A DNA stretch of 64,000 bases from Candidatus Eiseniibacteriota bacterium (GCA_963703225.1 OY969801.1:804001-868000), one strand, 5' to 3'. Positions 8,398-59,150 are shown, numbered from the stretch's first letter. Notes: generated by a model from the letters alone, not told the origin. Translations and numbers: made by a program.

Positions 8398-8531
8398 CCC
8401 AGATAGAATTTGCGCGCCTGTCCCTCTAGTCGCGCTGCACTGAACTGAGGGCGTGGAAGCCCCTTGTCACAACCGGACGCGTTCACCGGTTCCTAGGTGA
8501 GAAAGACGTCCGTGAAAAGGAGGGTCGGAGG

Positions 8532-44491: not shown

Positions 44492-46064
44492 GTGGAGGCA
44501 GCTGGGACGCTGCCGGGAGGATCGGAGCTGAAGCCGGAAGGAGCACCGGCTCGCGAGCGCGAGACCGGAAGCATCGAAATCCGACAGCAGCAGGTCGCTG
44601 GGCGTCGCGCTTACGACCCGGCGGCTCGCGAAGCACCCTTCCAGCCCAGGGCCAGGCGGCCCGCCGGGCACAGTGCTCTCGTTTTCGCGACGGTTCTTGG
44701 CGATCTCGCATCCGTGGCGATCGGGACGTTGGCAACCTCCACCCTCCGATACCCAATCGCTGAGACATTCTCATCGCTGCTCACGCCCGAAGGATCGACC
44801 CTTGTTCTTCTAGCTTCCCTAGCGTGGGTTGGCCTCCTCTCCGCCCGCGGGGCCTACTGGCCGAAGGTCACTCTTGGACGCGGTCGCCAGGCCGTTGTCA
44901 TCGTCGGGGCGGGGTTGCCCGCCTGGATCGTCGTCCAGCTCGCTGCATCCTGGCTCAAGGTCACCGTGCCGCTCGACAGCAGGCTGGTCATGGCCCTATC
45001 GCTACCCGCCACCCTGCTGGGCTTGGTGCTGTTCAGGCTGTCCATCGTGCGCCTTGGGGCGCACCAAGTGTATCGCCGGCGCGGTCAAGGGCTTCTCCTA
45101 GCTTTGAGCGCTTCCGACCCGTTTGCTCGGGGGGCGAGCAGCCCGTGGGCCCCGCATTTCCGTGGCAGGGTGGTCGTGCACCAGTACCTGGGTCCTCTCA
45201 GTCCCGGTCGTGCGCAGTCGCTTGTGGCCGAATATGAAGCAGAAGAAGTACTGCTGGAAACGGGTGTCCTTCCAGGAGCGGACACTCTGCAGATCGCCTT
45301 CGCGTGTCTGGATGCAGGGGCCGAGGTTCAGCTCGTACCTGCGGAGGGCCGCGCATCCGGGCGTGGACTCTCCGAGGATCGGGTCGGCGCGCTGCCGATG
45401 CTGCACCTCCGACGATTCGACCTAGCAGGTCCAGAGGTCATCTTCAAACGAATGGCGGACGTCGTTGGGTCGACGCTTGGCCTCTTGCTTCTCTCGCCCT
45501 TGTTTGCCGCGCTCGCGCTTGCGGTCAAGATCAACTCATCCGGCCCGGTCATTTACACGTCGGAGAGAATCGGCAAGCGCGGCCGGAGATTTCGGATGTT
45601 CAAGTTCCGAACGATGTTCCACGGGAACGACTCGAGGGAATATGAGAAGTACCTCGGTTCTTTATCCGGCAGGGAAGACCGGCGGTTGTCACGGCGGACG
45701 GGACGCACATCTACAAGCCGCCCACATGATCCGCGCGTCACCGCGGTCGGGGCTTGGCTCCGGAGGCTCTCCCTGGACGAGCTCCCACAGCTGCTTCAAC
45801 ACCCTTCTTGGCAGAATGAGCCTCGTCGGTCCTCGGCCGTGCCTGCCGTATGAGTGGGAGCTGTATGCGCCGTGGCAGCGGCGACGCCTCGATGTGACGC
45901 CCGGCTGCACAGGGCTGTGGCAGGTGAAAGGGAGGAGTCGGGTTCGATTCGAAGACATGGTGATACTCGACCTCTACTACGCGCATCACGGAACTCTTCT
46001 GAGCGACTTGCGGCTGATGGCTCAGACTATCCCCGTCATGGCGCAGGGACGCGGAGCGTACTGA
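44492..46064 (+). CDS. undecaprenyl-phosphate sugar phosphotransferase (initiating sugar transferase, WbaP/EpsL-like); frame disrupted near 45785-45800
   Basis: TM N-terminus; C-terminal bacterial sugar transferase motifs (PVIYTSERIGKRGRRFRMFKFRTM, SLDELPQL / LLGRMSLVGPRP, PGCTGLWQV) across two frames. Confidence 0.75.
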
Positions 46065-46084
46065 GAGGCGGGCACCCGCCTCAC

Positions 46085-46174
46085 CCACTCCACCCTCCCG
46101 CCGACGAGGAACGGCGTCTCGTTCGTTGAGGACCCGGGGATGTGATCCAGGTTCTCGATCGAAACCGTTCCGAT
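46085..46174 (-). pseudogene. remnant of Wzi-like outer-membrane protein 3' end
   Basis: Encodes IGTVSIENLDHIPGSSTNETPFLVGGRVEW, homologous to the C-terminus (VGTASIENLDHILAPAESETPFRVSGKVAW) of the intact gene at 48846-50423; about 50/70 ungapped nucleotide identity between 46100-46170 and 48860-48930. Confidence 0.45.
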
Positions 46175-46175
46175 C

Positions 46176-46310
46176 GATGTGAAGTCGATTCCCGATGGGA
46201 TGGTGGCCGCCGGAAACCCTGCCGAAGTCCTCAAGAAGATTGAGGATCTCAAGTGTTATCCCGGCTTCTTTGAACGCCCCTACGTCTGGGAGCCATACCA
46301 GAAGGGCTAG
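46176..46310 (+). pseudogene. possible remnant of hexapeptide-repeat acetyltransferase C-terminus
   Basis: ...IPDGMVAAGNPAEVLKKIEDL... resembles acetyltransferase C-terminal IP-x-x-VAAGNPA-V motif; no start codon or upstream body. Confidence 0.3.
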
Positions 46311-46450
46311 CGCCTCCCGCCACGCACTCCAGAGCGATGCGCGTCCGTCGAAGCTCGAACCGGCGCCATGCAGTATCACAACCGAATCATAGGATTAGCC
46401 TAGCTGATTCATCATAGCTACAATCTCTCCGTCACCACACCGGAGGGACT

Positions 46451-47410
46451 GTGCAGACGAACAGCGCGAAGTGGCTTCTCCTCATCCACCAAATCCCCGC
46501 GAAGCCTGACTACCTACGCGTGAAGGTCGGGCGCGAATTGCGCCAGCTTGGTGCCGTGGCGATCAAGAACTCGGTCTACGTGGTGCCGGCGGCTCCAGGG
46601 ATGCGAAAGGCGCTCGCGGACTTTTCCCGGGAGGTCCTCCAGCGCGGCGGGGAGGCGGCCGTCTGCGAGGCTCACTTTATTGAGGGCCTCGCCGATGGCG
46701 CGGTGGAGGACCTATTCCGCAAGGCGAGCGACGCGGAGTACTCCAAGCTCGCCGAGGAAGCGAGGGGTCTGGCCTCTGAGATGCGGGGCAGGCGGGCGGC
46801 CAACGACGCGGCCCGGCGAGCGGCGGCGCGGAAATTGGAACGGCTACGCCTGCGGTTCGACGAAATCGTCTCGAGGGATCCCTTTGACGCGCGAGGGCGA
46901 GCGGCCGCGGCGAGCGCAATTTCCCTGGCCGAGGATCGGGTCGAGGGAGTCGACGTGGGAGCGAAGGGGGGCGCCGGCGATCTGGAGCCGCCTCGGGGCG
47001 CCACCTGGGTGACGCGCACGGGCGTCATGGTGGATCGAATCGGGAGTGCCTGGCTCATTCGCCGGTTCATCGACCCGAAAGCCGAGTTCAAGTTCGTCTC
47101 CGCCCGCGGCTACAAACCCGTTCCGGGCGAGATCCGCTTCGACATGACCGGCGCGGAATTCACGCATCGGGACCACCTCTGCACTTTCGAGGTGCTGGTG
47201 GAGCGATTCCGGCTGCGGGATTCGGCTCTCAAGCCACTCGCCGAGATCGTCCACGACCTCGATTTGGAGGATGAGAAATATCGCCGACCGGAAGCCGCCG
47301 GGGTGGAGCGGATGATCGTGGGACTGGCCATCGCGGAGAAGAGCGATGAGGTGCGGCTCCGCCAAGGGGCCGCGGTGTTCGAAAACCTCTATGAGTCCTT
47401 TCGCAGGTGA
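46451..47410 (+). CDS. chrB: ChrB-like chromate resistance regulatory protein (N- and C-terminal ChrB domains)
   Basis: 319 aa; GTG after GGAGGGA; N-terminal WLLLIHQIPAKPDYLRVKVGRELRQLGAVAIKNSVYVVP and C-terminal WVTRTGVMVDRIGSAWLIRRFIDPKAEF motifs. Confidence 0.65.
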   Translation: MQTNSAKWLLLIHQIPAKPDYLRVKVGRELRQLGAVAIKNSVYVVPAAPGMRKALADFSREVLQRGGEAAVCEAHFIEGLADGAVEDLFRKASDAEYSKLAEEARGLASEMRGRRAANDAARRAAARKLERLRLRFDEIVSRDPFDARGRAAAASAISLAEDRVEGVDVGAKGGAGDLEPPRGATWVTRTGVMVDRIGSAWLIRRFIDPKAEFKFVSARGYKPVPGEIRFDMTGAEFTHRDHLCTFEVLVERFRLRDSALKPLAEIVHDLDLEDEKYRRPEAAGVERMIVGLAIAEKSDEVRLRQGAAVFENLYESFRR

Positions 47411-47453
47411 GGTTGTTGCGACTGGGTCGAGGCAAACGGAGGAGGGAAGCGCG

Positions 47454-47915
47454 ATGAAATGGGTAACGAGAGAGAACGTGCAGGTGGATCGAGTGGCATG
47501 CCCGTGGCTGATCAAGAAGTTCGTAGATCCGAAGGCTGAATTCCTGTTCGTGCCGGCGGACCAGGTCATGGCCGTGGCGGAGCGCGAGAAGGCGATCCCG
47601 TACGATGTGAAGGGCGTCGAGCTAGGCCATCATGGGAAGGAGTGCTCGTTCGATGCGATCGTCAAGAAGCACGGCCTGACGTCCGACCCGGCGCTGGTGC
47701 TGCTGGCCCGGATCGTGAACGGAGCCGACACGGACAACACGCTCTGGAACCAGCCAGAATCGGCCGGGCTGAGGGCGGTCGCCAAGGGCTTTCGCGGTCT
47801 TGGCTTCAAGAACGACCACGAGCTGAACGCCGCCGAATGGATCGTCTACGACGCGCTCTACGCCTACTGCGGGAAGATGGTGGAGGAGGGGAAGCTGGAG
47901 GGCGCGGCGAGGTGA
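47454..47915 (+). CDS. ChrB C-terminal domain protein (chromate-resistance-like)
   Basis: 153 aa; GGAGGAGGGAAG RBS; WVTRENVQVDRVACPWLIKKFVDPKAEF parallel to ChrB C-domain. Confidence 0.6.
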   Translation: MKWVTRENVQVDRVACPWLIKKFVDPKAEFLFVPADQVMAVAEREKAIPYDVKGVELGHHGKECSFDAIVKKHGLTSDPALVLLARIVNGADTDNTLWNQPESAGLRAVAKGFRGLGFKNDHELNAAEWIVYDALYAYCGKMVEEGKLEGAAR

Positions 47916-48868
47916 GTTCGGTCTTGGGGGCGGACGGTTCTCTGACGCGCGTCGGCTACATCGATCTACCGGAGCACATCGGGCAGGGCGGTTTCGATCA
48001 CGCGGCGGTCGATCGAGGCCGCGCCCTGCTCTACGTGGCGCACACGGCCAACGATGCGGTGGACGTTGTCGACACGCGGGCGGGCACCTACGTGCGGTCC
48101 ATGATCGGCCTCAAGGAGGTCGCGGGGGCGGCGGTGGACGAGCCGTCGGGCTTGGTCTTTACCTCGAACCGCGGTGAAGATACGGTTGGCATCTACTCAC
48201 CCGATTCGGCTGGCACAATCGAAAAGGTCGCGGTCGGCCACAGGCCCAATGGTCTCGCCTATGATCCCGGCCGCGGAATCCTCCTTTCCGCAAACGTGGG
48301 GAACGCGAAAACCGGCCGCCCGCCCAGCGTCACCCTGGTGGATGTCCCCGCGCGGTCGGCGGTGGTGACGATCCCCATGCCGGGTCGAACCCGCTGGGCG
48401 ATCTTCGACCCCAACCGCGGGGTCTTCTTCGTCAACATCGCGGACCCGCCGCAGATCGTCGAGATCGATCCGCGGGCGTCCGGCGAGGTGTCGCGCGCTC
48501 TCGGCGTGCCTGCCCGCGGGCCCCATGGCCTGGATCTCGACTCGACACGGCAGCGTCTCTATTGCGCGTGTGATGATGGGACCCTGGTGAGCCTCAGCTC
48601 GCGATCGGGGGAGGTGCTCGATACTCTCAGCCTGAGCGGTGCGCCCGACGTCGTATTCCTGAATCGCGCGCTGGCGCACCTCTACGTGGCGATCGGCGAC
48701 CCCGGCGTCATCGACGTGATCGACGTCGCCTCGTGGAAGCGAGTAGACGTGGTCCCCACGGAGGCCGGCGCGCATACGATCGCGCTCGATGAAGGCGGGA
48801 ATCAGGTCTACGCCTTCCTGCCGCGGACGCACCGGGCGTCCGTTTTCACCACGCCACCTTCCCGCTGA
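47912..48868 (+). CDS. YncE/YVTN-like beta-propeller repeat protein
   Basis: GTG overlapping upstream stop; repeated ~40-aa units with GxxPxGLxxD-like pattern. Confidence 0.55.
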   Translation: MSSVLGADGSLTRVGYIDLPEHIGQGGFDHAAVDRGRALLYVAHTANDAVDVVDTRAGTYVRSMIGLKEVAGAAVDEPSGLVFTSNRGEDTVGIYSPDSAGTIEKVAVGHRPNGLAYDPGRGILLSANVGNAKTGRPPSVTLVDVPARSAVVTIPMPGRTRWAIFDPNRGVFFVNIADPPQIVEIDPRASGEVSRALGVPARGPHGLDLDSTRQRLYCACDDGTLVSLSSRSGEVLDTLSLSGAPDVVFLNRALAHLYVAIGDPGVIDVIDVASWKRVDVVPTEAGAHTIALDEGGNQVYAFLPRTHRASVFTTPPSR

Positions 48869-50423
48869 CGCGAAACGGCGTCTCGCTCTCGGCGGGCGCC
48901 AAGATATGATCCAAATTCTCGATCGACGCCGTACCCACAACCGCCTCCACGCGCAGCCACCGCGCCGGCGAATAGATCGCCGCACCGCTCACGCGCGTCT
49001 CCTGCTCCGCCACGCCCTGAAAGGCTGAAGCATCCACTTCGCCGTCCGAGGGCTTCCAGGGATCGCTGACCTGGCCTTCACCCTTCTTTCGATATTCGCC
49101 GCGCACCTGAAACTCCCAATTCGCGCCCCACTCCAGCGCGACCTCGCCGGCGAGTAACTCGACGTCCGGGCCGAGAACAAACCCTGTGGGGAAGCCGTCG
49201 AACGAGAAATCGTGGTCGTGCCAGGCCGAGTAGACGTAATTGTGGACGCGGGAGTACTCGGCCGATACGCCGAGCGCGCCGCGTCCAGCCAATTCCCGCC
49301 GCCACTCGCCGCCTGCCTGGTACCCGATCATGTCGGGCTTGTAGTCGCTGCTGAACGAGTAGTCGTCCATGAGGAACTCGCCGTAGACGCGCCAGCCGGG
49401 GCGGACAACCCACGAGGCGTCGGCCGCCCAGAGCACGTTGTTCTTGGCGAAGAGGGCGCCGGTCGAGTCGCCGGGCAAGGAACCGGCGCTCTTCGGTCGC
49501 TTTTCCCAGAACGAATAGGGCACAAAGGGAATCAAATAGAGAGGTGCCTGGCTCGTGCCGTCGAACCGGGCCAGCTCCGTGGCTCCCACGGTGAGCCCGC
49601 CGCGCGCCTGCCACTCCAGCCGGTGTCCGGCCAAATAGGTCTCTTGGCCAGGGTCGAGCATCGCGACGAGCTGGTTGTAGCGGAACCGCCGAAACATGCC
49701 CAGCTCCACCCTCAGCATGTCGAGCGCGGGCGCGGCGTCGGAGAGCGCGAGCGTTCCGCTTTCGCCCGGTCCCCATCGCAGCCACGTGTGCCCGAAAAGG
49801 AACCGAAGGCGCGAGATGGGGAACTCGACGTAGGCCTCGTTCACGTACGAATTGAAGTCGACTCCTTGTACCAGCGAGTTGAAGTCGCCGAAGTCGGGAG
49901 TCCCACGTCCGCCCTGGGACGCCGTCCCCTCGTAGAGATCCACGACAAAGACGCCCGACGAGTCGAGCGCACCCGCCATGGAAGCGCCGACTCGATAGTC
50001 GCGGTTGATGTCGGGATTGTTCCGGGGATCGTCGGAGTAGAGGAGCGACACGTACGGCGAAATCTCGAGCCGCTCCCCATTGTCCTCGGCGTCACCGTCG
50101 CCTTTGGCCGAGATCAGCGGCCGCGTCGCGCCCTTCGCCTCTGGATCCAAATACCGCGCCGCGCGTTGAAACGCCGGATCGTCAGCGGCGCCCTCCCGCT
50201 CTTCGGCCAATCCGCGCAGGAACGCCAGCGCCTCCGCGCGCCGCAGCGGCCGGCTCGACAGGAATCGAGGCGCGACGCCGAACCGCGTGGCCAGTCTCTC
50301 GAGGTCGCGATAGACGGGGCTGTCGGTGGGGATCCGCTCTTGGGGCAAATAGGTCGCGCGGGCCGCGCCGGTGGCAACGAGAAGCGCGCTACCGACGATG
50401 ATCGCGACACAGAAGCGCTTCAT
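48846..50423 (-). CDS. Wzi-like capsule assembly outer-membrane protein
   Basis: 525 aa; signal peptide; N-terminal YRDLERLATRFGV helical motif then beta-barrel-like alternating pattern; family call tentative. Confidence 0.5.
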   Translation of the reverse strand: MKRFCVAIIVGSALLVATGAARATYLPQERIPTDSPVYRDLERLATRFGVAPRFLSSRPLRRAEALAFLRGLAEEREGAADDPAFQRAARYLDPEAKGATRPLISAKGDGDAEDNGERLEISPYVSLLYSDDPRNNPDINRDYRVGASMAGALDSSGVFVVDLYEGTASQGGRGTPDFGDFNSLVQGVDFNSYVNEAYVEFPISRLRFLFGHTWLRWGPGESGTLALSDAAPALDMLRVELGMFRRFRYNQLVAMLDPGQETYLAGHRLEWQARGGLTVGATELARFDGTSQAPLYLIPFVPYSFWEKRPKSAGSLPGDSTGALFAKNNVLWAADASWVVRPGWRVYGEFLMDDYSFSSDYKPDMIGYQAGGEWRRELAGRGALGVSAEYSRVHNYVYSAWHDHDFSFDGFPTGFVLGPDVELLAGEVALEWGANWEFQVRGEYRKKGEGQVSDPWKPSDGEVDASAFQGVAEQETRVSGAAIYSPARWLRVEAVVGTASIENLDHILAPAESETPFRVSGKVAW

Positions 50424-50493
50424 CGCGGCGCAGGATAGCGGCTTCCTGTCGCGGAGTCCATCGTTGACCCCGACTTCCGAGCGTCGCTACTGC

Positions 50494-50841
50494 TTAGCCC
50501 AGCAGGCCTGAACTCACGAGGAGCCGCTGCGACCAAACGCCGGCTTCTTCCGCGACGCCGGTTAGGTCATCGGGCGAGGATGGGGGATGGGAGAGTCGAA
50601 TCGTCCACGAGCGGACTCGCTCGCCAAGCCGGGAGAGCTCCAACGCGAGATCAGAGTCTCTCGGCACGGCCGTGTGCTGAATAAACATCTCTGTTTCCTC
50701 GATGAGTCCGCGGACAATTTCGCGATGATCGGGATTCGATGAGAAGGAGCGAATCCGCGCGAGGTTGGCCGCGATACCTCCAACTTGCATGTCGAGGCGA
50801 TCGCTCAAGTACCGGTTCAGCCTTTCGGTCGAATTCTTCAT
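50494..50841 (-). CDS. hypothetical protein
   Basis: 115 aa from ATG at 50841 overlapping upstream stop (ATGA). Confidence 0.4.
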   Translation of the reverse strand: MKNSTERLNRYLSDRLDMQVGGIAANLARIRSFSSNPDHREIVRGLIEETEMFIQHTAVPRDSDLALELSRLGERVRSWTIRLSHPPSSPDDLTGVAEEAGVWSQRLLVSSGLLG

Positions 50842-51176
50842 ATCCCGCCTAGTATGCGCCTGGTAACCTTGTCGACGCGCGCCCGGATCGCGGCGCTTTG
50901 AATCTCGACTGACGGGTTTGCTTGGCGCGGCCTGATGTTTATCAGGGAGTGGTACCTGACTTCCTGGGTCGAAGGCACCCAATCAGCACCCCAAATGTCT
51001 TCTTGGTTGCTGCCGGCCTTGAGCAAGGCCGCCTCGCAGTCGGCATGCATGATGCCCCCACCCGCGACAACCTCTCGCCGAATGTCGACCGCTACCTTGA
51101 CATAGTCCTCGAGCGCATGGAGCATCTCGTCGAGTTGTTGCCGTGTGGGTTGAGCGCGCAGCACATGCACCGTCAC
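50838..51176 (-). CDS. hypothetical small protein (112 aa), not listed separately in ORF track
   Basis: GTG 3 nt after CYTH-CHAD stop with GGGGGAG upstream; MTVHVLRAQPTRQQLDEMLHALEDYVKVAVDIRRE...MHADCEAALLKAG...; coherent non-repetitive sequence hidden in tail of long ORF 50838-52751. Confidence 0.45.
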   Translation of the reverse strand: MTVHVLRAQPTRQQLDEMLHALEDYVKVAVDIRREVVAGGGIMHADCEAALLKAGSNQEDIWGADWVPSTQEVRYHSLINIRPRQANPSVEIQSAAIRARVDKVTRRILGGI

Positions 51177-51178
51177 CC

Positions 51179-52706
51179 CTACTCCCCCGTCGCCCGCTCC
51201 CAAGCCAGCCGCAAGTCTCCGCGCTTGATCCGCGCCGCGCGCTCGAGATGCCCGAGCGCGCTGCCGGTTCCCATCACCAGCTCCCGGTCCTTCTTGGGCA
51301 CGCTGCCGGCGTACTTTCTCATTCGCCGCCAGAGCGCCACCGCGTCGCGGTGGTCTCCAAGGAAGTCTTGCAGGGTCGCGATCCGCCGGGCGCGTCGGAC
51401 CGCGCCGTGGCCCTCGATGTCCGTGAAATACTCGATCGCGTACCGCGCCTTCTTCGCCGCGATCCGAAGCGTGTGGAGGTCCTCGATCTCCATCGAGCGC
51501 TCGGCCTTCTCGTAGGCTTCGCGCATCGCGTCGTTCCATTGGGCGACGATCCGGGACGCGACCGCGTACCCTGGCATCCCCCCCTCGGCCACCGTCGAAG
51601 CTGGGGGCGGACCCGCGTCCACCCATCCGCGGGCGCGGGCGGCAAACGCTCCAAAGCGCTCCGAGTCGAGGCGCTCGACCAGTCGGCGGCGCCGCTCGGC
51701 GCGCCTCACCGAGAGCCCCTGCGCGAATATCTGGAGCGCGGGACGCTCGTGCGAGGTCCCATCGGCTATGAGCGCCGCGACGTGCGTCAGCGCGACATCC
51801 AGATCCCGCACCCGGCCGAGCGCGCGGCCGATCCAGCGAAGCTCGCCCTCCAGCTCCTCCCGGAGCGCTTGGGGGTAGCCGTCCGCGAGGACGACGAGCG
51901 CGGTCCGAAGCCGCCTGCAGGCCACCCGCATGTCGTGGACGTACGTCGGGGTCGACGCCGAGTCGCGTCCCTGGCTCGTTCCAGAAGAGCCGCCCCAAAT
52001 GGCGGCCAAAGGACTTGTGGGCTACGTCGAGGAGACGGTCGGCGTGGTTCAGCGCGAACGCGCGCTCGTCCCGCTCCGGGAGCCGCTCGCCCATCGCGGA
52101 GAGCGCGGCCGAGAGCTTGGTCTCGACCGTTTGCGCGAGGCCGAGCTGCTCCTCCACCGCGCGCCGCACCTGGCCCAGCGCCTCGTAGGCGCCGTTCTGA
52201 AGCTCGAGCTCCACCTCGCGGAACGTCGCGGGTGGCGCGCTCACGTGGTCGACCGTGAGCGAGCCGAGCAGCGTCTCCCCGCGGAGCCAGCGGAAGCACT
52301 CGCGGTCGTTTCGGACGCGGGCGCGAACCAGGAGTCTCTCGATCGCGTGGAGCCCCGCGAGCGGGTGGAGCAATCCCGCCACTGGACCGGGCTCGAGCGC
52401 GGTCCAGGGCGGATCGCCGTTGGGCGCGTCCTGGGCCCATTCCTCCCGCACCAGCGCCTTCTCGTCGGCCGACCGGAGCGATTTCGCCTCCAGCCGGAGC
52501 CGTGTCCCTTCGGAGCGTAGCCGAAGCGCGATCCCGGCGCGGAAGAGCGTCCAATTCTCGGTGTCGAGGTAGCGGTCCTCGTGGACGACGGTGCCGCTCG
52601 GCTCCAGATGAAATCCGGCCGATTCCACAGCCGCGCGCACGGTGGCGGGGTCGCGCCCCTCGGGCAATCGAAACTTGATCTCGCGCTCGATCATGGCGAT
52701 ATCCAT
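51179..52706 (-). CDS. CYTH-CHAD domain protein (triphosphate tunnel metalloenzyme-like plus CHAD); frame disrupted near 51940-51980
   Basis: N-terminal EREIKFRL CYTH motif; C-terminal CHAD (VHDMRVACRRLRTALVV) in second frame; start overlaps sixA stop. Confidence 0.7.
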
Positions 52707-53212
52707 CACGAATCGGCGATCCGCCGGAGCGCGCCCGGCTGGAGCAGCCATTCCAGGAATCCAAGCCCCGGCGCGGGCTCGGAGGGGAATCGCAGCAACG
52801 CGGCGGCGCCCTTCCGGAATACGAGCGAAGCTGAGTGGTGCGGGCCGCAGAGGAGGTACGAGGCGAATCCGCTCAGGTGTGGCTCGTGCCCCACGACCGC
52901 GACCGACTTCACGCCGAGCGCGGCCACCGCCCCCAGCGCGTCTCCATAATCGGCGTCCGGCTTGAGGCGAGGGGTGTGCTCGATCTCCAAATGCGGCTGC
53001 ACGGCGTCGCGAAGAATCTCAGCCGTCTGGCGGGCTCGCAGGAGCGGGCTCGAGAGGATCCGGTCGGGGCGCACGTCGAGTTTTTCCAAGCCCTTCGCGG
53101 CGAGGCGGAACTTGTGAATTCCCTCAGGGGTCAGCGGGCGATCGTCGTCCCACGGGTAGGCAGGATCGCCGCGCTCGACGGCGATGGCGTGACGCACGAT
53201 ATAGAGATCCAC
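52706..53212 (-). CDS. sixA: phosphohistidine phosphatase SixA (histidine phosphatase superfamily)
   Basis: 168 aa; LYIVRHAIAVERGD N-terminal RHG-type motif, VVGHEPHLS. Confidence 0.75.
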   Translation of the reverse strand: MDLYIVRHAIAVERGDPAYPWDDDRPLTPEGIHKFRLAAKGLEKLDVRPDRILSSPLLRARQTAEILRDAVQPHLEIEHTPRLKPDADYGDALGAVAALGVKSVAVVGHEPHLSGFASYLLCGPHHSASLVFRKGAAALLRFPSEPAPGLGFLEWLLQPGALRRIADS

Positions 53213-53409
53213 GCTTCCCCCGGGAACCGACTGGCGTAGCGAGACTTGCAGCGAGGCTGGCCCTGGCGCAGCCCTTATATTGTCTCACTCCTATGCCGGG
53301 CGGTCAACCGCAGCCCGGCTCCCTCCCTTGACGGCCCGGCCTCGGGCGAGCGAAGATGGCCCTAATGGCTTCACCGACAAAGACTTCCTTTCCCATCCGC
53401 TGCGCCGGC

Positions 53410-55011
53410 ATGGACGTCGGCTCGAACGCCCTACGGCTGGCCATCGCGGAATTCAGAAGCCCCACCGAATACGAGGTCCTCGACCGGGTGCGTGCCCCGG
53501 TCCGGCTCGGGGAGTCGGTTTTCAAGAGCCAGCGGATCGACCCGGCCACCATGGAGGCGGCGCTCGACGCGTTCCGCACGTTCCGCCGGAAGATGGAGCA
53601 GCACGGCGTGGTGGTCCATCGCGCCGTCGCGACCAGCGCGACGCGCGAGGCGAAGAACCGCGCCGCGTTTCTGGAGCGGGTCCGGAGCGAGACCGGTCTC
53701 GATCTCGAGCTGATCCAGGGGACAGAGGAGGCGCGGCTCGTCGCGCTGGGCGTGAAGAGCCGCCTCTCCTTGGAGCGCGGGCTCTCGATGATCCTTGACG
53801 TGGGGGGCGGGTCGAGCGAGATCGCGCTCGTCGGGCACGGAGAGATCCTGATCGTGGAGTCGCACGACGTGGGCGGGGTGCGGCTCCTCGAGCGGGCCGG
53901 CAAAGGACCGCCCGAGAAACTGTTCAAGCTGATCCAGGCCACCCTGCGCTCGTCGCGGTTTCCGATCCTCGACTACTTCAAGCGCCGGCGGCTGAATCGG
54001 CTGATCGGAACGGGCGGAAACATCGAAACGCTCGCGCTCCTGACCTCGGCCAATGGACACGCCCGCGCGAACGGGGACGAGCGTCCGGTGGCCAAGGTCA
54101 CGCTCCCCCGGCTTCGGAAATTCCTCCATCAGCTCACCAAGCTCTCGCCCGCCGAGCGGGCGTCCCGCTTCGACCTCCGTCCGGATCGCGCCGACGTGAT
54201 CGTGCCGGCGGGGGCGATCTTCGAGTACGTGGCCACGCGGGTGCGCGCCCGCGAGATCTGGGTGCCGTTCGTGGGGCTCGTGGACGGGGTGCTGATCGAC
54301 GTGGCGCAGGCCGCGGGCACGGAGGGAATGAAGCAACTCGAGGTTTCCCAGACGCGAAACGCGGCGGTCGCGATCATGCACAAGTACGACCCCGAGCCAA
54401 GGCACGCGCAGCGGGTGAGCGCGCTCGCGGTGTCGCTCTTCGACCAGCTGAAGCCGATGCACGGGATGGGGAAGCGCGACCGGCTCCTGTTGGAGCTGGC
54501 GGCGCTCCTCCACGAGGTGGGGAACTTCATCGGACCGAACGGCCACCATCGCCACTCGCTCTACATCATCGCGCAGACCCCGATCCTCGGGCTGGGCGAC
54601 GACGAGCTGATGGTGGTGGCGAACGTCGCCCGCTATCACCGGAAGGCGCCGCCCGACATGAGCCACGAGTACTACCGCGATCTCTCGGAGGGCGACCGCG
54701 AGCGGGTCCGCGCCCTCGCGGCCATCCTCCGTGTCGCCGACGCGCTCGACCATGACCACCGGCAGCAGGTGACCGCGGTGCGCGCCAAGCAGCGGGGCTC
54801 CGAGCTGAGGCTCAAGGTGAAGACCCGCGGGGACGTGACCCTGGACGAGTGGTCGGTGGGCGACAAGGGCGATCTCTTCCAGGACGAGTTCGGCCTCAAG
54901 CCCGTGGTCGCGCGCCGGTGGCTGACGCGCTTCCGGTCATCTCGGTCATCGACGTCGGCGCGAGCGGGATCCGCATGCTCCTCGCCGAGCTTCGCCCGGG
55001 CGGCGAGTTGA
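53410..55011 (+). CDS. ppx: Ppx/GppA family exopolyphosphatase (3' end uncertain)
   Basis: MDVGSNALRL...ATSATREAKN...DVGGGSSEIAL actin-fold motifs and C-terminal HD-like region; C-terminal ~30 aa low complexity, may be artefact. Confidence 0.75.
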   Translation: MDVGSNALRLAIAEFRSPTEYEVLDRVRAPVRLGESVFKSQRIDPATMEAALDAFRTFRRKMEQHGVVVHRAVATSATREAKNRAAFLERVRSETGLDLELIQGTEEARLVALGVKSRLSLERGLSMILDVGGGSSEIALVGHGEILIVESHDVGGVRLLERAGKGPPEKLFKLIQATLRSSRFPILDYFKRRRLNRLIGTGGNIETLALLTSANGHARANGDERPVAKVTLPRLRKFLHQLTKLSPAERASRFDLRPDRADVIVPAGAIFEYVATRVRAREIWVPFVGLVDGVLIDVAQAAGTEGMKQLEVSQTRNAAVAIMHKYDPEPRHAQRVSALAVSLFDQLKPMHGMGKRDRLLLELAALLHEVGNFIGPNGHHRHSLYIIAQTPILGLGDDELMVVANVARYHRKAPPDMSHEYYRDLSEGDRERVRALAAILRVADALDHDHRQQVTAVRAKQRGSELRLKVKTRGDVTLDEWSVGDKGDLFQDEFGLKPVVARRWLTRFRSSRSSTSARAGSACSSPSFARAAS

Positions 55012-56476
55012 AGACGCTGGAGCAGCTCGAGCGGCCGCTCGCGCTGGGACGCGAGACGTTTCGCACCGGGACGCTCTCGGCGGGGAGCATCCAGAAGGCG
55101 GTGAACGTGCTCCGCCAGTACCGCGCGCTGATGGACACCTACGGCGTGACCCACACGCGCGCGGTCGCGACGAGCGCGGTGCGCGCGGCGCTGAACCGCG
55201 ACACGTTCGTCGACCGCGTCTTCCTGGCCACCGGGATCGAGATCGAGGTGATCGAGGGATCGCAGGAGACGCTGCTCACCTTCGCCGCGGTCCAGCGGGC
55301 TCTGGGAGAGCATCCGGAGGTGGGGGCGGGCGAATCGCTGATGTTCGAGCTGGGCGGCGGCGCGACCGAGTGGGCGTTGATGCGAGACGGCGAGGTGGTC
55401 GCGTCGGTGACCCACGACCTGGGCACCGTCAGGATGCGGGAGCTGCTCCGCACCGGCGAAACGGAGCGCCGCGCCAAGACGCGGCTCATCCAGCACAACG
55501 TACGCGAGATGATGAACGCGATCCGGCGCGCGCTCCCGTTCAAGGAGGTCTCGAACCTGATCGCGGTGGGCTCGGAGGCGCGCTTCGCGGCCCGCGCGCT
55601 GGCCGACCCCGAGAAGAAGAACGGCTCGGAGAACGACACCTTGGGCGCGGTGAGCGCGAAAGACTTGAAGAAGCTGGCCGACCAGATCCTTCCGATGACG
55701 CCCGATCAGGTCGCCTCCCAGTTCGGAGTGGCCGCGGGAGAGGCCGAGTCGCTGGCGCCGGCGCTCCTCGCCTACGCGGAGCTGATCCGGCTCAATCAGG
55801 TGGAGCGCCTCCTCGTCCCGCGGGTCAGCATGCGGGACGGGCTCGTGCTCCAGATGGCCAAGTCGATCCAGAGCGGCTCGAGCGTCTTCTTCCCGGAGCA
55901 GACGATCGCCGCGGCGATCAATCTCGCGCGGAAATATCAGGCCGACGAGAAGCACGGGACCGCCACCGCCGCGCTCGGCCGGAGTCGATCTTTGAGGCGA
56001 CGCGGGCGCAGCACCGGATGGGTGAGCGCGAGCTTCTGCTCCTGGAAGTGGCGTCGATCGTCCACGACATCGGCGGTTTCGTCGCGGCGCGCGGCCATCA
56101 CCGCCACGCCTACTATCTCCTGACCAATTCGGAAATCTTCGGGCTCTCCGGCGTCGATCTGGAAATCGTCGCGAACCTCGCGCGCTACCACCGTCGGGGC
56201 GGCCCGCAGTCGGATCATCCCGCGTACGCGTCGCTCCCGCGCCCGGCGCGGCTCACCGTGAATCGCCTCTCCGCCATCCTCCGCGTCGCCGACGCGCTCG
56301 ACAAGGGGCACAACCAGCGCATCCGCGACCCCAAGATCAGCGTGGTGGGCGATGAGCTTCGGATCGAGGTCGAGGGGGCGGAGGACCTCGCGCTCGAGCG
56401 TTTGGCGCTCGACCAGAAGGGGGGTCTCTTCGAGGAGGTCTTCGGCCTCAAACCGGTCCTGGTCGAGGTCGCGTGA
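54918..56476 (+). CDS. ppx: Ppx/GppA family exopolyphosphatase, tandem paralogue; frame disrupted near 55970-55990
   Basis: VIDVGASGIRMLL...ATSAVRAALN...ELGGGATEWAL then second frame HDIGGFV...HHRHAYYL. Confidence 0.7.
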
Positions 56477-58577
56477 GCGAGCCGCGATTTCTCAATCGGT
56501 CCCTCACCTGGCTCGGATTCAACGGGAGGGTGCTGGAAGAGGCACAGGACGATTCGAACCCGGTGCTCGAGCGGGCGCGCTTTCTTGGCATCTTCGCCTC
56601 GAACCTCGACGAGTTCTTCATGATCCGGGTGGCCGGGATCCGCGAGCTGGTCCGCGCCGGCGTGGAGCACCAGGAGCCCGACGGGAGCACGCCCGCGGAG
56701 CTTCTCTGACCAAGATCGCCGTCAAGGCGCGCGAGCTGGGCGCGGCGGCGGCTGCGCTCTACGCGAAGCGAGATCGCCCCGGCGCTCCGTGAAGGGGGCG
56801 TTCGCTTTCGTCACCCCGGTCGGACCTCGAGCCGCGGGAGCGCGCCTTTCTCGACCGGCTCTTCGCGTCGGAGATCTTTCCCGGTCCTGACCCCGGCCGC
56901 GATCGATCCGGCCCTGCCGTTTCCGCACGTGACGAACCTCGCTCTCTATCTGGCCGTCCGTCTGGAGCGAAACGGCGATGATTCGAAGCTCGCCATCGTC
57001 CAGCTTCCCCGCACCGCCGCGCGGTGGATCCAGGTGGCGGGTAAGGACGAGGTCCGCTTCGTGCTTCTGGAGGAGGTGGTTCGGGAGCGGATCGGCGAGC
57101 TGTTCGAGGGGCACGCGGTGGCCGAGGCGGTCGCGTTTCGGGTGACGCGGGACGCCGACTTCGCGACCGACGATCAGGAGGCCGAGGATCTGGTCGACGC
57201 GGTCCGTCAGGTTCTGCGAGAGCCGGCTGCGGGGCGATCCGGTCCGGCTGGAGGTGGAGGAGGGCGCGAGCGCGGGGCTGGTGGATCGGCTCGCGGGAGC
57301 GCTGGGGCTGACCGAGGACGAGGTCTATCGGTTGCCCGCGCCCGCTCGATCTCAAATTTCTCACCGACTTCGCCCGGCATCCCGTCGCTTCCGGCGCCGC
57401 GCGCGACCCCGTGGCCGCCCCAGCCGCGGCCCGACATTCCGCCGGGGGACGCGATCTGGGAGCGCGATCGCCGAGCGGGACATCCTTCTCTTTCACCCGT
57501 ACGAGAGCTTCGAGCCGGTACTCCGGATCGCTCCGCCTCGCGGCGGAGGACCCCGCGGTGTTGGCGATCAAGCAGACGCTCTACCGGACTTCGTCCGGGT
57601 CGGAGGTCGTGCGCGCGCTGGAGCGGGCGGCGGAGAACGGGAAGCAGGTGACGGTGCTGGTCGAGCTTCAGGCGCGCTTCGACGAGGAGCGGAACGTGAC
57701 CTGGGCCCGGCGACTCGAAGACGCGGGGGCGCAGGTCCTCTACGGGCTCGCGGGGCTGAAGACCCACGCCAAAGCGCTCCTGATCGTGCGGCGCGGTGCC
57801 GGCGGGATCGAGCGGTACGCCCACGTCGGCACGGGGAATTACAACGAGCGGACGGTGCTCGATTACTCCGATTTGAGTCTCTTGACCGCCGACGAGGACC
57901 TCTGCGTCGATCTGACGGCCTTCTTCAACGTCGTGACCGGCTACTCCGAGCCGCTCCCCTGGAGGCGGATCGCGATGGCCCCGCTGGGTCTCAGGCAGCG
58001 CCTCCTCGGCCTGATCCGGCGCGAGGTGGAGAAGTCGACCGCCGAGGAGCCGGGGCAGATCCGTGCGAAGATGAACTCGCTCGTCGACGTCGCGCTCATC
58101 GAGGCGCTGTACGCGGCGTCCTCGGAAGGAGTAAAGATCGACCTGAACGTCCGCGGCTCCTGCCTGCTCCGTCCCGGCGTGAAGGGGATGAGCGAGAACA
58201 TCCGCGTGGTGACGATCGTCGATCGCTTTCTGGAGCACAGCCGGATCTTCGAGTTTCGAAACGGCGGGGACACCGAGGTATTCATCGGAAGCGCCGATTG
58301 GATGCCGCGAAATCTGGACCGCCGCGTGGAGCTGGTGGTGCCGATCGTGGACGTGGAGCACCGCGCCCGCCTCAGCCGGGTCCTCGACACGTTCTTTGCC
58401 GACAATGTGAAGGCGCGGGAGTTGCGACAGGACGGAACGCTGGTGAAGCGGGATGGCCGAAAGCGGGCGGTCCGAGCCCAGGAGGTTTTCTGGGAAGAAG
58501 CGCGCGAGAGGGCGGCGCGGCCGCCCGATCCGGAGCGCGCAGCGTTTCAACCGGTTCGGAGGCCGTCGCACGGGTAG
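56473..58577 (+). CDS. ppk: polyphosphate kinase 1; multiple frame disruptions between ~56700 and ~57550
   Basis: N-terminal FLNRSLTWLGFNGRVLEEA...FLGIFASNLDEFFMIRVAG; C-terminal PLD-like domains (HAKALLIVRR, YAHVGTGNYN, GSADWMPRNLDRRVE) in several frames. Confidence 0.75.
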
Positions 58578-58601
58578 CGGTCCGAGCCAAGGAGGGCGAA
58601 C

Positions 58602-59150
58602 ATGGCTACCTTTGTCCAGCGGATGATCGGGGCCGCCAGGCTGAACCCGGCGACCTACGAAGAGGTCGAGGCCGACAAGTCCGCCACGGGGCAGGCGACC
58701 GTGGTGGTCGTTCTCTCCGCGATCGCGGCCGGCATCGGCTCGATCGACGCGGGCGCCCGCGGCGTGGTGGTCACCATCGTGGCCGCGCTCCTCGGATGGG
58801 TCATCTGGGCGTTTCTGACCTGGCTCATCGGGACCAAGTTTCTCGCCGAACCCGAAACCAAGGCCGACATGGGGGAGCTCCTCCGCACCATCGGCTTCGG
58901 GTCGTCCCCGGGACTCATCCGGGTCTTCGGCGCCCTGCCCTTTGTCGGCGGCCTCTTTCTGATCGCGGCGTGGATCTGGATGCTCGTTTCGACGGTGGTG
59001 GCGGTGCGGCAGGCGCTCGACTACAAGAGCACGGGGAAGGCGATTCTGGTCTGCGCGATCGGTTGGTTCGTCTACGTCCTCTTCTTCATCTCGGTCGTCT
59101 CGCTGCTCGGGATCGCGATCATTGGGATCGGGGGCACGGTCGCCAGCTAG
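58602..59150 (+). CDS. Yip1 family membrane protein
   Basis: 182 aa; AAGGAGGG RBS; N-terminal NPATYEEVEADKSATGQA then 5 TM helices. Confidence 0.6.
   Translation: MATFVQRMIGAARLNPATYEEVEADKSATGQATVVVVLSAIAAGIGSIDAGARGVVVTIVAALLGWVIWAFLTWLIGTKFLAEPETKADMGELLRTIGFGSSPGLIRVFGALPFVGGLFLIAAWIWMLVSTVVAVRQALDYKSTGKAILVCAIGWFVYVLFFISVVSLLGIAIIGIGGTVAS

What the first reader, a model, noticed from the sequence alone, without database searches (positions are those of the whole stretch)
46085..46310. Scar between polysaccharide locus and chrB module: decayed copy of the Wzi gene 3' end plus an acetyltransferase-like fragment
Nucleotides 46100-46170 share about 71 percent ungapped identity with 48860-48930, the convergent junction of the beta-propeller gene and the intact Wzi-like gene. 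The minus strand at 46085-46174 encodes a recognisable Wzi C-terminus homologue without the rest of the gene, and the adjacent plus strand encodes a fragment resembling an acetyltransferase C-terminus. Because the two homologous blocks are direct repeats spaced 2.76 kb apart, the intervening chrB-chrB'-beta-propeller segment may have been inserted next to an ancestral Wzi gene, duplicating its 3' end.
Basis: seen in the sequence. Interest (0 to 1): 0.55.

Follow-up and report, generated by a model that had tools for sequence, protein, structure and literature searches.

The report
Recombination scar beside a polysaccharide locus
Two abutting gene stumps (the last 30 codons of a Wzi-like outer-membrane gene and the last 43 codons of a sugar acetyltransferase) mark where exopolysaccharide gene cassettes were swapped between strains of an uncultured Eisenbacteria species; this is ordinary genome evolution, not a new system.

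Summary
46085-46174 (minus strand) is a 30-codon Wzi 3' remnant, and 46179-46310 (plus strand) is the last 43 codons of a hexapeptide acetyltransferase. The repeat partner is offset by 2764 nt, not 2760 (73-76% identity, E 3e-12).

The proposed cause does not hold.
- The chrB-chrB'-propeller module is old backbone. It sits beside Wzi in a 98%-identical strain (L021, with a full acetyltransferase) and in two other species (L022, L026), none carrying the Wzi-stub/AcT-stub scar (L026 seen only rightward).
- The Wzi stub is not a copy of the resident gene. It is 74% identical to Wzi1 but 87% identical to another species' allele (L002).
- The stub is colinear with the sugar-transferase 3' end, as in relatives where that gene converges directly on an intact Wzi (L001, L016).
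- The acetyltransferase stub is 100% amino-acid identical to full-length relatives despite 20-22% nucleotide divergence. It was therefore truncated recently.

The same junction occurs in two independent assemblies, one beside an L001-type cassette, so it is not an assembly artefact.

Best reading: an illegitimate join made during exopolysaccharide cassette exchange. It joined a "transferase-meets-Wzi" cassette to an "acetyltransferase-chrB-Wzi" backbone. A known kind of feature; low interest.

The parts
44492..46064 (+). Priming sugar transferase (Bac_transf). It is split into two frames by one extra base near 45794 (cagctgCttcaac). Its 3' end is colinear with the Wzi stub.
   Evidence: Pfam PF02397 positions 1-95 fall in ORF 44492-45853 and positions 95-177 in ORF 45465-46064. 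The sequence shows the shift directly. blastn aligns 45900-46173 colinearly with L001 3561-3296. The scar-bearing contig from ERR15459708 has an intact 504-aa transferase.
46065..46084 (.). Spacer between the transferase stop and the Wzi stub. It contains a perfect inverted repeat, GAGGCGGG-CA-CCCGCCTC (46065-46082). From 46069 it is homologous to the spacer just past the stop of resident Wzi1. The extra G at 46084 displaces the old TGA (46081-46083).
   Evidence: Sequence. The repeat finder D1 block starts at 46069. The fold is not unusual, z = -1.2. No terminator consensus was found.
46085..46174 (-). Wzi-like 3' remnant: 30 codons with no start and no in-frame stop.
   Evidence: tblastn E 1.5e-6 to Wzi1. 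Nucleotide identity is 86.7-87.6% to L002 Wzi, 74.4% to Wzi1 and 67.8% to L001. Three residues differ at positions invariant in six functional alleles: A>V, R>L and S>G.
46170..46178 (.). Junction between the two stubs (ccgatcgat). Wzi homology ends at about 46173 and acetyltransferase homology begins at 46173-46179. Parental-type sequences share a short CCG/TCG microhomology here.
   Evidence: Three-way reading of the scar against L002 Wzi 3' and the L002/L010/L009/L021 acetyltransferases. blastn HSP ends are 46173 and 46169/46179. The same junction peptide, GIDFTSIGTVSIENL, occurs in P0241 from two other assemblies.
46179..46310 (+). Hexapeptide acetyltransferase 3' remnant: the last 43 codons plus the stop, without the beta-helix body.
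   Evidence: Compared with L010 there are 29 nt differences in 129 nt. All 27 changed codons are synonymous and none alters the amino acid; L009 and L014 give the same pattern. The full-length homologue in L021 matches Hexapep/NeuD-type models.
46311..46373 (.). Unassigned spacer after the acetyltransferase stop. It shows only marginal similarity to the sequence downstream of L021's acetyltransferase.
   Evidence: Local alignment score is 26 against a shuffle mean of 17.2 (sd 3.1, maximum 28). No blastn match in any locus.
46374..46460 (+). chrB upstream region, which is the strain-variable boundary. It is only partly conserved with L021 and contains a conserved inverted repeat (GAATCATAGG...CTAGCTGATTC). 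Near-identity to L021 begins at about 46460.
   Evidence: Both P0241 contigs end at about window position 46424.
46451..48868 (+). chrB (46451-47410), chrB C-domain-only gene (47454-47915) and YncE-like beta-propeller gene (47912-48868, GTGA start/stop overlap). This is backbone shared with L021, L022 and L026, not the cause of the scar.
   Evidence: Pfam and NCBIfam. Start sites read. Genomic contexts. 98% identity to L021.
48833..48938 (-). 3' end of the intact resident Wzi-like gene (whole gene 48846-50423) plus its downstream spacer. This is the partner of the direct repeat.
   Evidence: Pfam Caps_assemb_Wzi scores 31.1 bits against a cut-off of 30.1.

Best explanation
The scar is a non-functional recombination junction left by exchange of exopolysaccharide (EPS) gene cassettes between Candidatus Eisenbacteria genomes.

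Two locus layouts exist in this clade.
- Type A: sugar transferase > GFO-type dehydrogenase > hexapeptide acetyltransferase >< Wzi. In the window's subclade the chrB-chrB'-propeller operon is lodged between the acetyltransferase and Wzi.
- Type B: sugar transferase >< Wzi, directly convergent.

A type-B cassette of the L001 kind (GT4, Methyltransf_21, GT1, WecG, transferase) was integrated into a type-A+chrB backbone. Its right end broke 90 nt inside the incoming Wzi. It was joined illegitimately, at a few bases of microhomology, to a point 43 codons before the end of the resident acetyltransferase. That deleted the resident dehydrogenase and most of the acetyltransferase. This is the outcome expected of homology-facilitated illegitimate recombination: a homologous anchor on one side and an illegitimate join on the other.

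Later, in the window's lineage, the genes upstream of the conserved transferase 3' half were replaced again by an L022-type cassette. The transferase 3' end and the scar stayed in place.

Shown: the identity of both stubs, their permuted order, the foreign allele of the Wzi stub, the freshness of the acetyltransferase stub, the age of the chrB module, and the same junction in other assemblies.
Inferred: the direction of transfer, a single-step join, and the recombination pathway.
For: 1. Layouts. Type A occurs in L002, L005, L006, L007, L014, L015 and L018, and partly in L003, L009 and L010, whose contigs end before the transferase. Type B occurs in L001 and L016. None of these 20 loci contains chrB.
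2. Backbone. L021 is 98.3% identical to the window over 46461-58882. It has transferase > GFO > full acetyltransferase > methyltransferase > chrB > chrB' > propeller >< Wzi. Left of 46374 there is no high-identity match.
3. L022 has the window-type upstream cassette, with the transferase followed 156 nt later by chrB and no stubs. In L026 the propeller also lies close to Wzi, separated by one 435-aa ORF.
4. The Wzi stub is 87% identical to L002 but 74% to resident Wzi1.
5. 45900-46173 aligns as one colinear block with L001's transferase 3' end, spacer and Wzi 3' end.
6. The acetyltransferase stub differs from L010 at 29 of 129 nt with no amino-acid change. The chance of no amino-acid change is 0.044 after two random substitutions and 0.009 after three.
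7. P0241 is an ORF call across the same junction in Logan assemblies ERR15459708 and ERR12036786. There the transferase is intact (504 aa) and is followed by WecG, GT1, Methyltransf_21 and GT4. L001 has the same order beyond its transferase, as far as its contig reaches (WecG, GT1, Methyltransf_21).
8. Parental-type sequences share CCG/TCG at the join.
9. Published analogues exist: PMC3240628, PMC5361080 and PMC5349592.
Against: - The true parental sequences are unsampled. The nearest transferase relative is 58% identical, so the microhomology and the direction of transfer are inferred.
- The Wzi stub carries A>V, R>L and S>G at positions invariant in six functional alleles, and has lost its stop. 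The acetyltransferase stub shows no change. Under simultaneous truncation this asymmetry has p of about 0.01. It hints that the Wzi stub is older, which favours a two-step history.
- No DNA was available for the two P0241 contigs, so their junction is known only at protein level.
- The three differences between P0241 and the window all fall in the acetyltransferase stub. Two of them (M>V, L>I) are residues that L002's functional protein carries at those positions. Later recombination may therefore have refreshed this stub, which would weaken the age argument.
Confidence: 0.65

Rival explanations
1. Two-step history within the locus. An older event truncated a Wzi gene that converged on the sugar transferase, leaving a decaying stub next to further cassette genes. 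A much later simple deletion then removed everything from inside that stub to codon ~186 of the acetyltransferase, creating the present junction.
For: The Wzi stub has changes at three positions invariant in six functional alleles, and a displaced stop that is also present in P0241. The acetyltransferase stub has no amino-acid change against 25-29 synonymous differences. Scaled by length, five changes against none gives p of about 0.01.
Against: It needs one more event than the single join. The 'invariant' positions rest on only six alleles, and the C-terminal 30 residues of Wzi vary widely among functional genes. No intermediate layout was found in 28 loci.
Confidence: 0.25
2. One reading: insertion of the chrB-chrB'-propeller segment next to an ancestral Wzi duplicated its 3' end, and the left copy then decayed.
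For: The two blocks are direct repeats 2764 nt apart that bracket the module. The module is absent from 20 related loci.
Against: L021, L022 and L026 all carry the module. L021 and L022 have no Wzi stub, and L026's contig does not reach that side. The repeat is only 74% identical, whereas the stub is 87% identical to a foreign allele. The acetyltransferase stub and 140 nt separate the left repeat from the module. That stub is fresh while the module predates species splits. No transposase or integrase lies in 46311-48846.
Confidence: 0.03
3. Assembly chimera: the stubs come from mis-joined reads of co-occurring strains.
For: The source and L021 differ by 16 single-base indels, and the transferase is frameshifted. 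At least one of the two assemblies therefore seems to carry indel errors.
Against: The identical junction peptide occurs in two independent run assemblies. The source contig is 3.12 Mb. An artefact would need two chimeric joins within 225 nt.
Confidence: 0.02
4. The block is retained because it does something. Candidates are a transcription stop or insulator between the EPS operon and chrB, a 43-aa peptide from GTG 46179, or the 76-88-aa antisense ORF.
For: The acetyltransferase reading frame is perfectly preserved. The block survived a second cassette swap. A perfect 8-bp inverted repeat lies at 46065-46082.
Against: No Shine-Dalgarno sequence precedes GTG 46179, whereas chrB and chrB' both have GGAGG. 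No terminator or promoter consensus and no Rfam match were found. The hairpin energy is unremarkable. L021 and L022 function without the block.
Confidence: 0.05

Closest known systems
Truncated flanking-gene remnants at capsule or O-antigen islands, for example Neisseria meningitidis cps Regions D/D' with intact galE1 and truncated galE2 (PMC5349592)
   Same: A horizontally exchanged surface-polysaccharide locus is bordered by an intact gene on one side. On the other side lies a truncated, non-functional partial copy in direct orientation, left by the recombination that installed the island.
   Different: Here the stub is not a duplicate of the resident gene but a different allele (87% identical to another species' gene, 74% to the resident one). 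It is fused to a second stub from an unrelated gene. The organism is an uncultured soil phylum.
Homology-facilitated illegitimate recombination (HFIR; PMC3240628) and sequential displacement leaving orphaned 3' ends, as in Vibrio cholerae T6SS effector-immunity arrays (PMC5361080)
   Same: Incoming DNA is anchored by homology on one side and joined without homology on the other. This truncates resident genes and leaves 3' stubs that persist through later replacements.
   Different: The pathway is inferred only from the architecture of the end product. Competence, the anchor and the parents are unknown. The orphaned pieces have no evident function, unlike immunity genes.
Target-site duplication by a mobile element
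   Same: Direct repeats bracket a segment that is absent from many relatives.
   Different: The repeats are about 100 nt long and 73-76% identical, and they are not flush with the segment. No mobility gene is present, and relatives carry the segment without the repeat.

Membership tests
Wzi-like outer-membrane capsule-assembly gene (Pfam PF14052) | Sequence homology to the family | tested here: met
   The resident gene 48846-50423 scores 31.1 bits against a cut-off of 30.1. The stub matches its last 30 residues at E 1.5e-6 and is 87% nt identical to the L002 orthologue.
Wzi-like outer-membrane capsule-assembly gene (Pfam PF14052) | Complete reading frame with start, signal peptide, barrel body and stop | tested here: not met
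   Only 30 codons remain. Homology ends at about 46173, and the stop is displaced by an extra G at 46084. It is a remnant, not a gene.
Hexapeptide-repeat (left-handed beta-helix) sugar acetyltransferase | Homology to the C-terminal region of family members | tested here: met
   100% amino-acid identity to the C-terminal tails of the L010 and L009 homologues. The full-length L021 homologue matches PF00132 and NeuD/WbbJ/LacA models at residues 165-209.
Hexapeptide-repeat (left-handed beta-helix) sugar acetyltransferase | Presence of the beta-helix catalytic body (about 185 upstream residues) | tested here: not met
   Upstream of 46173-46179 the sequence is the Wzi stub on the opposite strand. 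The 54-aa fragment has no Pfam hit.
Mobile-element insertion with target-site duplication | Near-identical short direct repeats flush with both ends of the inserted segment | tested here: not met
   The repeats are 73-76% identical and about 100 nt long. The left copy is separated from chrB by 277 nt, including another gene's stub.
Mobile-element insertion with target-site duplication | Mobility gene (transposase or integrase), or relatives with the segment always accompanied by the duplication | tested here: not met
   Only ChrB, ChrB_C and a YncE-like propeller are encoded. L021 and L022 carry the segment without the duplication.
Illegitimate (microhomology) recombination junction / HFIR product | Two unrelated truncated sequences abutting with no filler DNA | tested here: met
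   Wzi homology ends at about 46173 and acetyltransferase homology starts at 46173-46179.
Illegitimate (microhomology) recombination junction / HFIR product | Short microhomology between the two parents at the join | tested here: inconclusive
   Parental-type sequences share CCG/TCG: L002 Wzi has ...GTCCCGACGA, and the L002/L021 acetyltransferases have ...GGTCCGTCGT / GGTTCGGTCGT. The real parents are unsampled.
Illegitimate (microhomology) recombination junction / HFIR product | Homologous anchor at the other end of the incoming DNA | not testable with these tools
   The left end of the original cassette has since been overwritten in the window. No DNA is available for the ERR15459708 contig.

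The most novel reading that the evidence does not exclude
The transferase 3' end plus the double stub may be more than debris. It could be a maintained 'landing pad' or insulator that Eisenbacteria strains reuse as the right-hand crossover site for EPS cassette exchange. Alternatively the perfectly preserved 43-codon acetyltransferase tail (or its antisense ORF) could be expressed as a small protein. This would explain why the block survived a second cassette replacement and why the tail shows no amino-acid change.
Probability: 0.05. Interest if true: 0.5.

Novelty: new member of a known kind. Interest (0 to 1): 0.22.

Why it matters
The scar itself has no evident function. It is a well-resolved fossil showing that the exopolysaccharide locus of a soil Eisenbacteria species is exchanged between strains and species repeatedly.

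- At least three different cassettes sit against one 98%-identical backbone.
- Both homologous and illegitimate joins appear to be involved.
- The convergent acetyltransferase/Wzi spacer is a recurrent site for accessory cargo.

This is the behaviour known from capsule and O-antigen loci of pathogens, here documented in an uncultured phylum. It is useful for annotation: these stubs and their antisense ORF should not be called as genes. It also gives a marker for tracking cassette lineages in metagenomes. It does not open a new biological question.

Tried and rejected
1. Exact look-ups of the window's Wzi1 and of P0121 in the contig index returned nothing. The source genome could not be fetched beyond the window. 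It is known only as a 3,123,862-nt NCBI/ENA contig.
2. A mosaic breakpoint inside the sugar transferase or Wzi1 was sought with sliding identity against L001, L002, L005, L022, L021 and L016. No sharp switch was seen. The transferase C-terminal domain is simply conserved in all of them.
3. A tandem-duplication or circle-junction origin for the permuted order [Wzi 3'][AcT 3'] was considered. It was rejected because it predicts a stub nearly identical to resident Wzi1 at the time the fresh acetyltransferase stub was made. The observed identity is 74%.
4. Gene conversion between the stub and Wzi1 was considered as the cause of the 8-substitution patch at 48901-48918. The stub matches the window at 5 of those sites and L021 at 3, which is uninformative.
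5. Pfam on the two stubs alone gave no hit because they are too short.
6. Rfam, promoter/terminator consensus scans and folding of the spacer gave nothing notable.
A 50-aa chimeric query was used instead.
8. Homology of 46311-46373 to the sequence downstream of L021's acetyltransferase is marginal, about 2.8 sd above shuffles.
9. The search for a closer cassette donor via the transferase found nothing above 58% identity.

Full report
**1. What is at the coordinates**

The window is high-GC DNA from a Candidatus Eisenbacteria genome. All close relatives retrieved carry that name, apart from one locus labelled Dormiibacterota. The source is a 3.12-Mb contig held by NCBI and ENA.

Upstream of the finding lies an exopolysaccharide (EPS) locus:
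- Wza-like exporter, Wzy, Wzx and two GT1 glycosyltransferases;
- asparagine synthase, an ADH/GFO fusion, an unknown gene and DUF354;
- a Bac_transf priming sugar transferase at 44492-46064, split by a one-base frameshift near 45794.

Downstream lie:
- chrB (46451-47410);
- a ChrB C-domain-only gene (47454-47915);
- a YncE-like beta-propeller (47912-48868, start overlapping the preceding stop);
- on the minus strand, an intact Wzi-like gene (48846-50423).

**2.

- The repeat offset is 2764 nt, not 2760.
- The match is about 8 sd above every other 71-mer in the window.
- blastn gives 75.9% over 87 nt, E 3e-12. tblastn gives 60% over 30 aa, E 1.5e-6.
- The repeat finder extends the block to 46069-46171 / 48833-48935, which takes in about 16 nt of spacer beyond the Wzi stop.
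- The minus-strand stub reads IGTVSIENLDHIPGSSTNETPFLVGGRVEW. Its TGA is pushed out of frame by an extra G at 46084.
- The plus-strand stub 46179-46310 is the last 43 codons of a hexapeptide acetyltransferase. It is 100% amino-acid identical to the tails of the L010 and L009 homologues.
- The full-length L021 homologue (228 aa) matches Pfam Hexapep and NeuD/WbbJ/LacA-type models at residues 165-209.

**3. Synteny in relatives**

Using Wzi1 as query, 20 related loci were retrieved.
- Most have the layout sugar transferase > GFO-type dehydrogenase > acetyltransferase >< Wzi < CYTH ... Ppx ("type A": L002, L005, L006, L007, L014, L015, L018; partly L003, L009, L010).
- Two (L001, L016) have the sugar transferase converging directly on Wzi ("type B").
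- None contains chrB.
- The acetyltransferase/Wzi convergent spacer is 15-30 nt in L002, L003, L007, L010 and L015.
- That spacer holds other cargo elsewhere: a low-GC methyltransferase in L009/L014 and two unknown ORFs in L005/L006/L018.

**4. The chrB module is old backbone, not the cause of the scar**

The propeller's best homologue (97% identity) lies on a 688-kb ENA contig, L021.
- The window from 46461 to 58882 is 98.3% identical to L021, and more than 99.5% identical over 47461-48460 and 48961-52960 (500-nt bins). Identity collapses between 46460 and 46374, and nothing to the left matches closely.
- L021 reads DUF354 > DegT > transferase > GFO > full acetyltransferase > methyltransferase > chrB > chrB' > propeller >< Wzi.
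- L022 is a different species (about 79% nt identity). It has the window's upstream cassette order, with the transferase followed 156 nt later by chrB and no stubs.
- L026 also places the propeller close to Wzi-CYTH-Ppx, with one 435-aa ORF between them.
- In L023-L025 the module sits in an unrelated context with an MFS transporter.

The module therefore arrived beside Wzi before these species diverged. Strains and species carrying it lack the Wzi stub.

**5. The Wzi stub is a foreign allele attached to the transferase**

- Over 90 nt the stub is 86.7% identical to L002's Wzi, 74.4% to resident Wzi1 and 67.8% to L001. By blastn it is 73% identical to L021's Wzi.
- It shares the IP..STN(D/E)TPF motif with L002 and partly with L026, not with Wzi1.
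- 45900-46173 aligns as one colinear block with L001's transferase 3' end, spacer and Wzi 3' end. L016 aligns through to its Wzi stop.
- The left half of the scar is therefore a type-B junction.

**6. The acetyltransferase stub is fresh**

- Against L010 there are 29 nt differences in 129 nt, spread over 27 codons, and all are synonymous. L009 and L014 give 25 differences in 123 nt, again with no amino-acid change.
- In simulation, two random substitutions leave the peptide unchanged only 4.4% of the time, and three only 0.9%.
- The gene was therefore under purifying selection until very recently, within roughly 1-2% neutral divergence.
- Together with section 5, this excludes any model in which the junction was made using the resident Wzi1 as template.

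**7. The scar is real and shared**

A 50-aa query ending in the stub peptide found P0241 (88 aa). P0241 is an ORF call running antisense through the acetyltransferase stub, then through the Wzi stub, the spacer and the transferase 3' end.
- It has the identical junction peptide and the same displaced stop.
- It occurs in two independent Logan assemblies, ERR15459708 and ERR12036786.
- It differs from the window's translation at three residues, all in the acetyltransferase part, plus one stop-to-Trp change that is synonymous in the transferase frame.
- In ERR15459708 the transferase is intact (504 aa). The next genes are WecG, GT1, Methyltransf_21 and GT4. L001 shows the same order beyond its transferase.
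- Both contigs stop at about window position 46424, inside the variable chrB upstream region.

This links the scar's left half to an L001-type (type-B) cassette. It also shows that the window's upstream cassette (L022-type) is a later replacement.

**8. Mechanism**

The simplest account has two steps.
1. An L001-type cassette entered a type-A+chrB backbone. Its right end, 90 nt into the incoming Wzi, was joined without homology to codon ~186 of the resident acetyltransferase. Only a CCG/TCG microhomology is seen between parental-type sequences. The resident dehydrogenase and acetyltransferase body were deleted.
2. A homologous crossover in the conserved transferase 3' half later swapped the upstream genes. 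That half is 87-97% amino-acid identical to both L001 and L022.

This architecture is what homology-facilitated illegitimate recombination produces (PMC3240628). It parallels orphaned 3' ends in Vibrio cholerae T6SS arrays (PMC5361080). It also parallels the truncated galE2 remnant bordering the meningococcal capsule island (PMC5349592).

The direction of transfer, the single-step join and the pathway are inferred.

**9. Unresolved point**

The Wzi stub carries A>V, R>L and S>G at positions invariant in six functional alleles, and has lost its stop. The acetyltransferase stub shows no change. If both were truncated together, this asymmetry has p of about 0.01. A two-step history (an old Wzi truncation followed by a recent deletion into the acetyltransferase) is a serious rival. 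Alternatively, later recombination with intact alleles may have refreshed the acetyltransferase stub. Two of the three P0241 differences (M>V, L>I) are residues that L002's functional protein carries at those positions.

**10. Function**

- No Rfam family, sigma-70 promoter consensus or terminator consensus was found. The spacer hairpin is not unusually stable.
- GTG 46179 lacks the GGAGG seen before chrB and chrB'.
- L021 and L022 lack the block.
- I conclude the scar is non-functional debris.

**Verdict**

The proposed causal link, insertion duplicating the Wzi 3' end, is not supported. This is a new example of a known kind of feature and is of low general interest.

Noticed in passing
window 45776-45800 (ORFs 44492-45853 and 45465-46064): The priming sugar transferase of the EPS locus is split by a single extra base (cagctgCttcaac; L001 has cagctgtataac). 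A scar-bearing strain (ERR15459708) has an intact 504-aa gene. The window and L021 also differ by 16 single-base indels in 12.4 kb. The frameshift may therefore be an assembly error rather than a true pseudogene.
   Followed up: partly
window 46374-46450; L021 8458-8536; L022 about 8440-8520: The chrB upstream region carries an inverted repeat, GAATCATAGG-N-CCTAGCTGATTC, conserved with L021 and recognisable in L022 (TGAATCATAG...GGATTCA). It is a candidate operator for the ChrB-type regulator. The same region is where window/L021 identity collapses and where both P0241 contigs end.
   Followed up: no
window 46451-48868; L023 7412-12147: ChrB, a ChrB C-domain-only protein and a YncE-like beta-propeller form a conserved operon with a start/stop overlap and no chrA chromate transporter nearby. 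In GCA_016853205.1 the same set has an extra propeller and an MFS transporter. The function of this chrA-less module is unclear.
   Followed up: partly
window 48901-48918 (inside the Wzi1 3' end): Eight substitutions lie within 18 nt relative to L021, in a stretch otherwise about 99.5% identical. They are mostly synonymous and look like a micro-recombination patch. The patch falls inside the repeat partner of the scar, but the stub is not clearly its donor (5 of 8 sites match the window, 3 of 8 match L021).
   Followed up: partly
L009 4435-5218, L014 1222-2002; L005 11622-13449; L021 7448-8311; L022 10978-12164; L026 1025-2332: The convergent spacer next to the Wzi 3' end is a recurrent cargo site. 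It holds a low-GC class-I methyltransferase (L009/L014), two unknown ORFs (L005; L006 and L018 have a gap of similar size, not annotated here), and an RMNT_CmcI methyltransferase (L021). It also holds an amidohydrolase plus an unknown ORF (L022) and a 435-aa unknown ORF (L026).
   Followed up: partly
window 50838-52751 vs L021 12583-14794: The window shows one 637-aa ORF carrying CYTH plus DUF5674. In the 98%-identical L021 these are separate genes: 508 aa CYTH/CHAD, 112 aa DUF5674 and 115 aa. A single-base indel at 51947 may be responsible. The neighbourhood (two Ppx/GppA genes, PPK and His_Phos_1 in L021) looks like a polyphosphate module.
   Followed up: no
window 59147-60718; L001 67-1110 and 5034-5183; L022 13761-15446; L016 7211-8260: Several Wzi-like paralogues occur per locus: a second one in the window is 34% identical to Wzi1, and relatives have extra copies. 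L001 also has a short Wzi-like match (37% over 59 aa) just upstream of its sugar transferase. That may be another recombination remnant.
   Followed up: no
window 46157-46181: The junction sequence is itself an imperfect palindrome (TCGATCGAAACCGTTCCGATCGA, 20/23 self-complementary). It is 80% complementary to 47975-47999 inside the propeller gene. This is probably chance and was not pursued.
   Followed up: no
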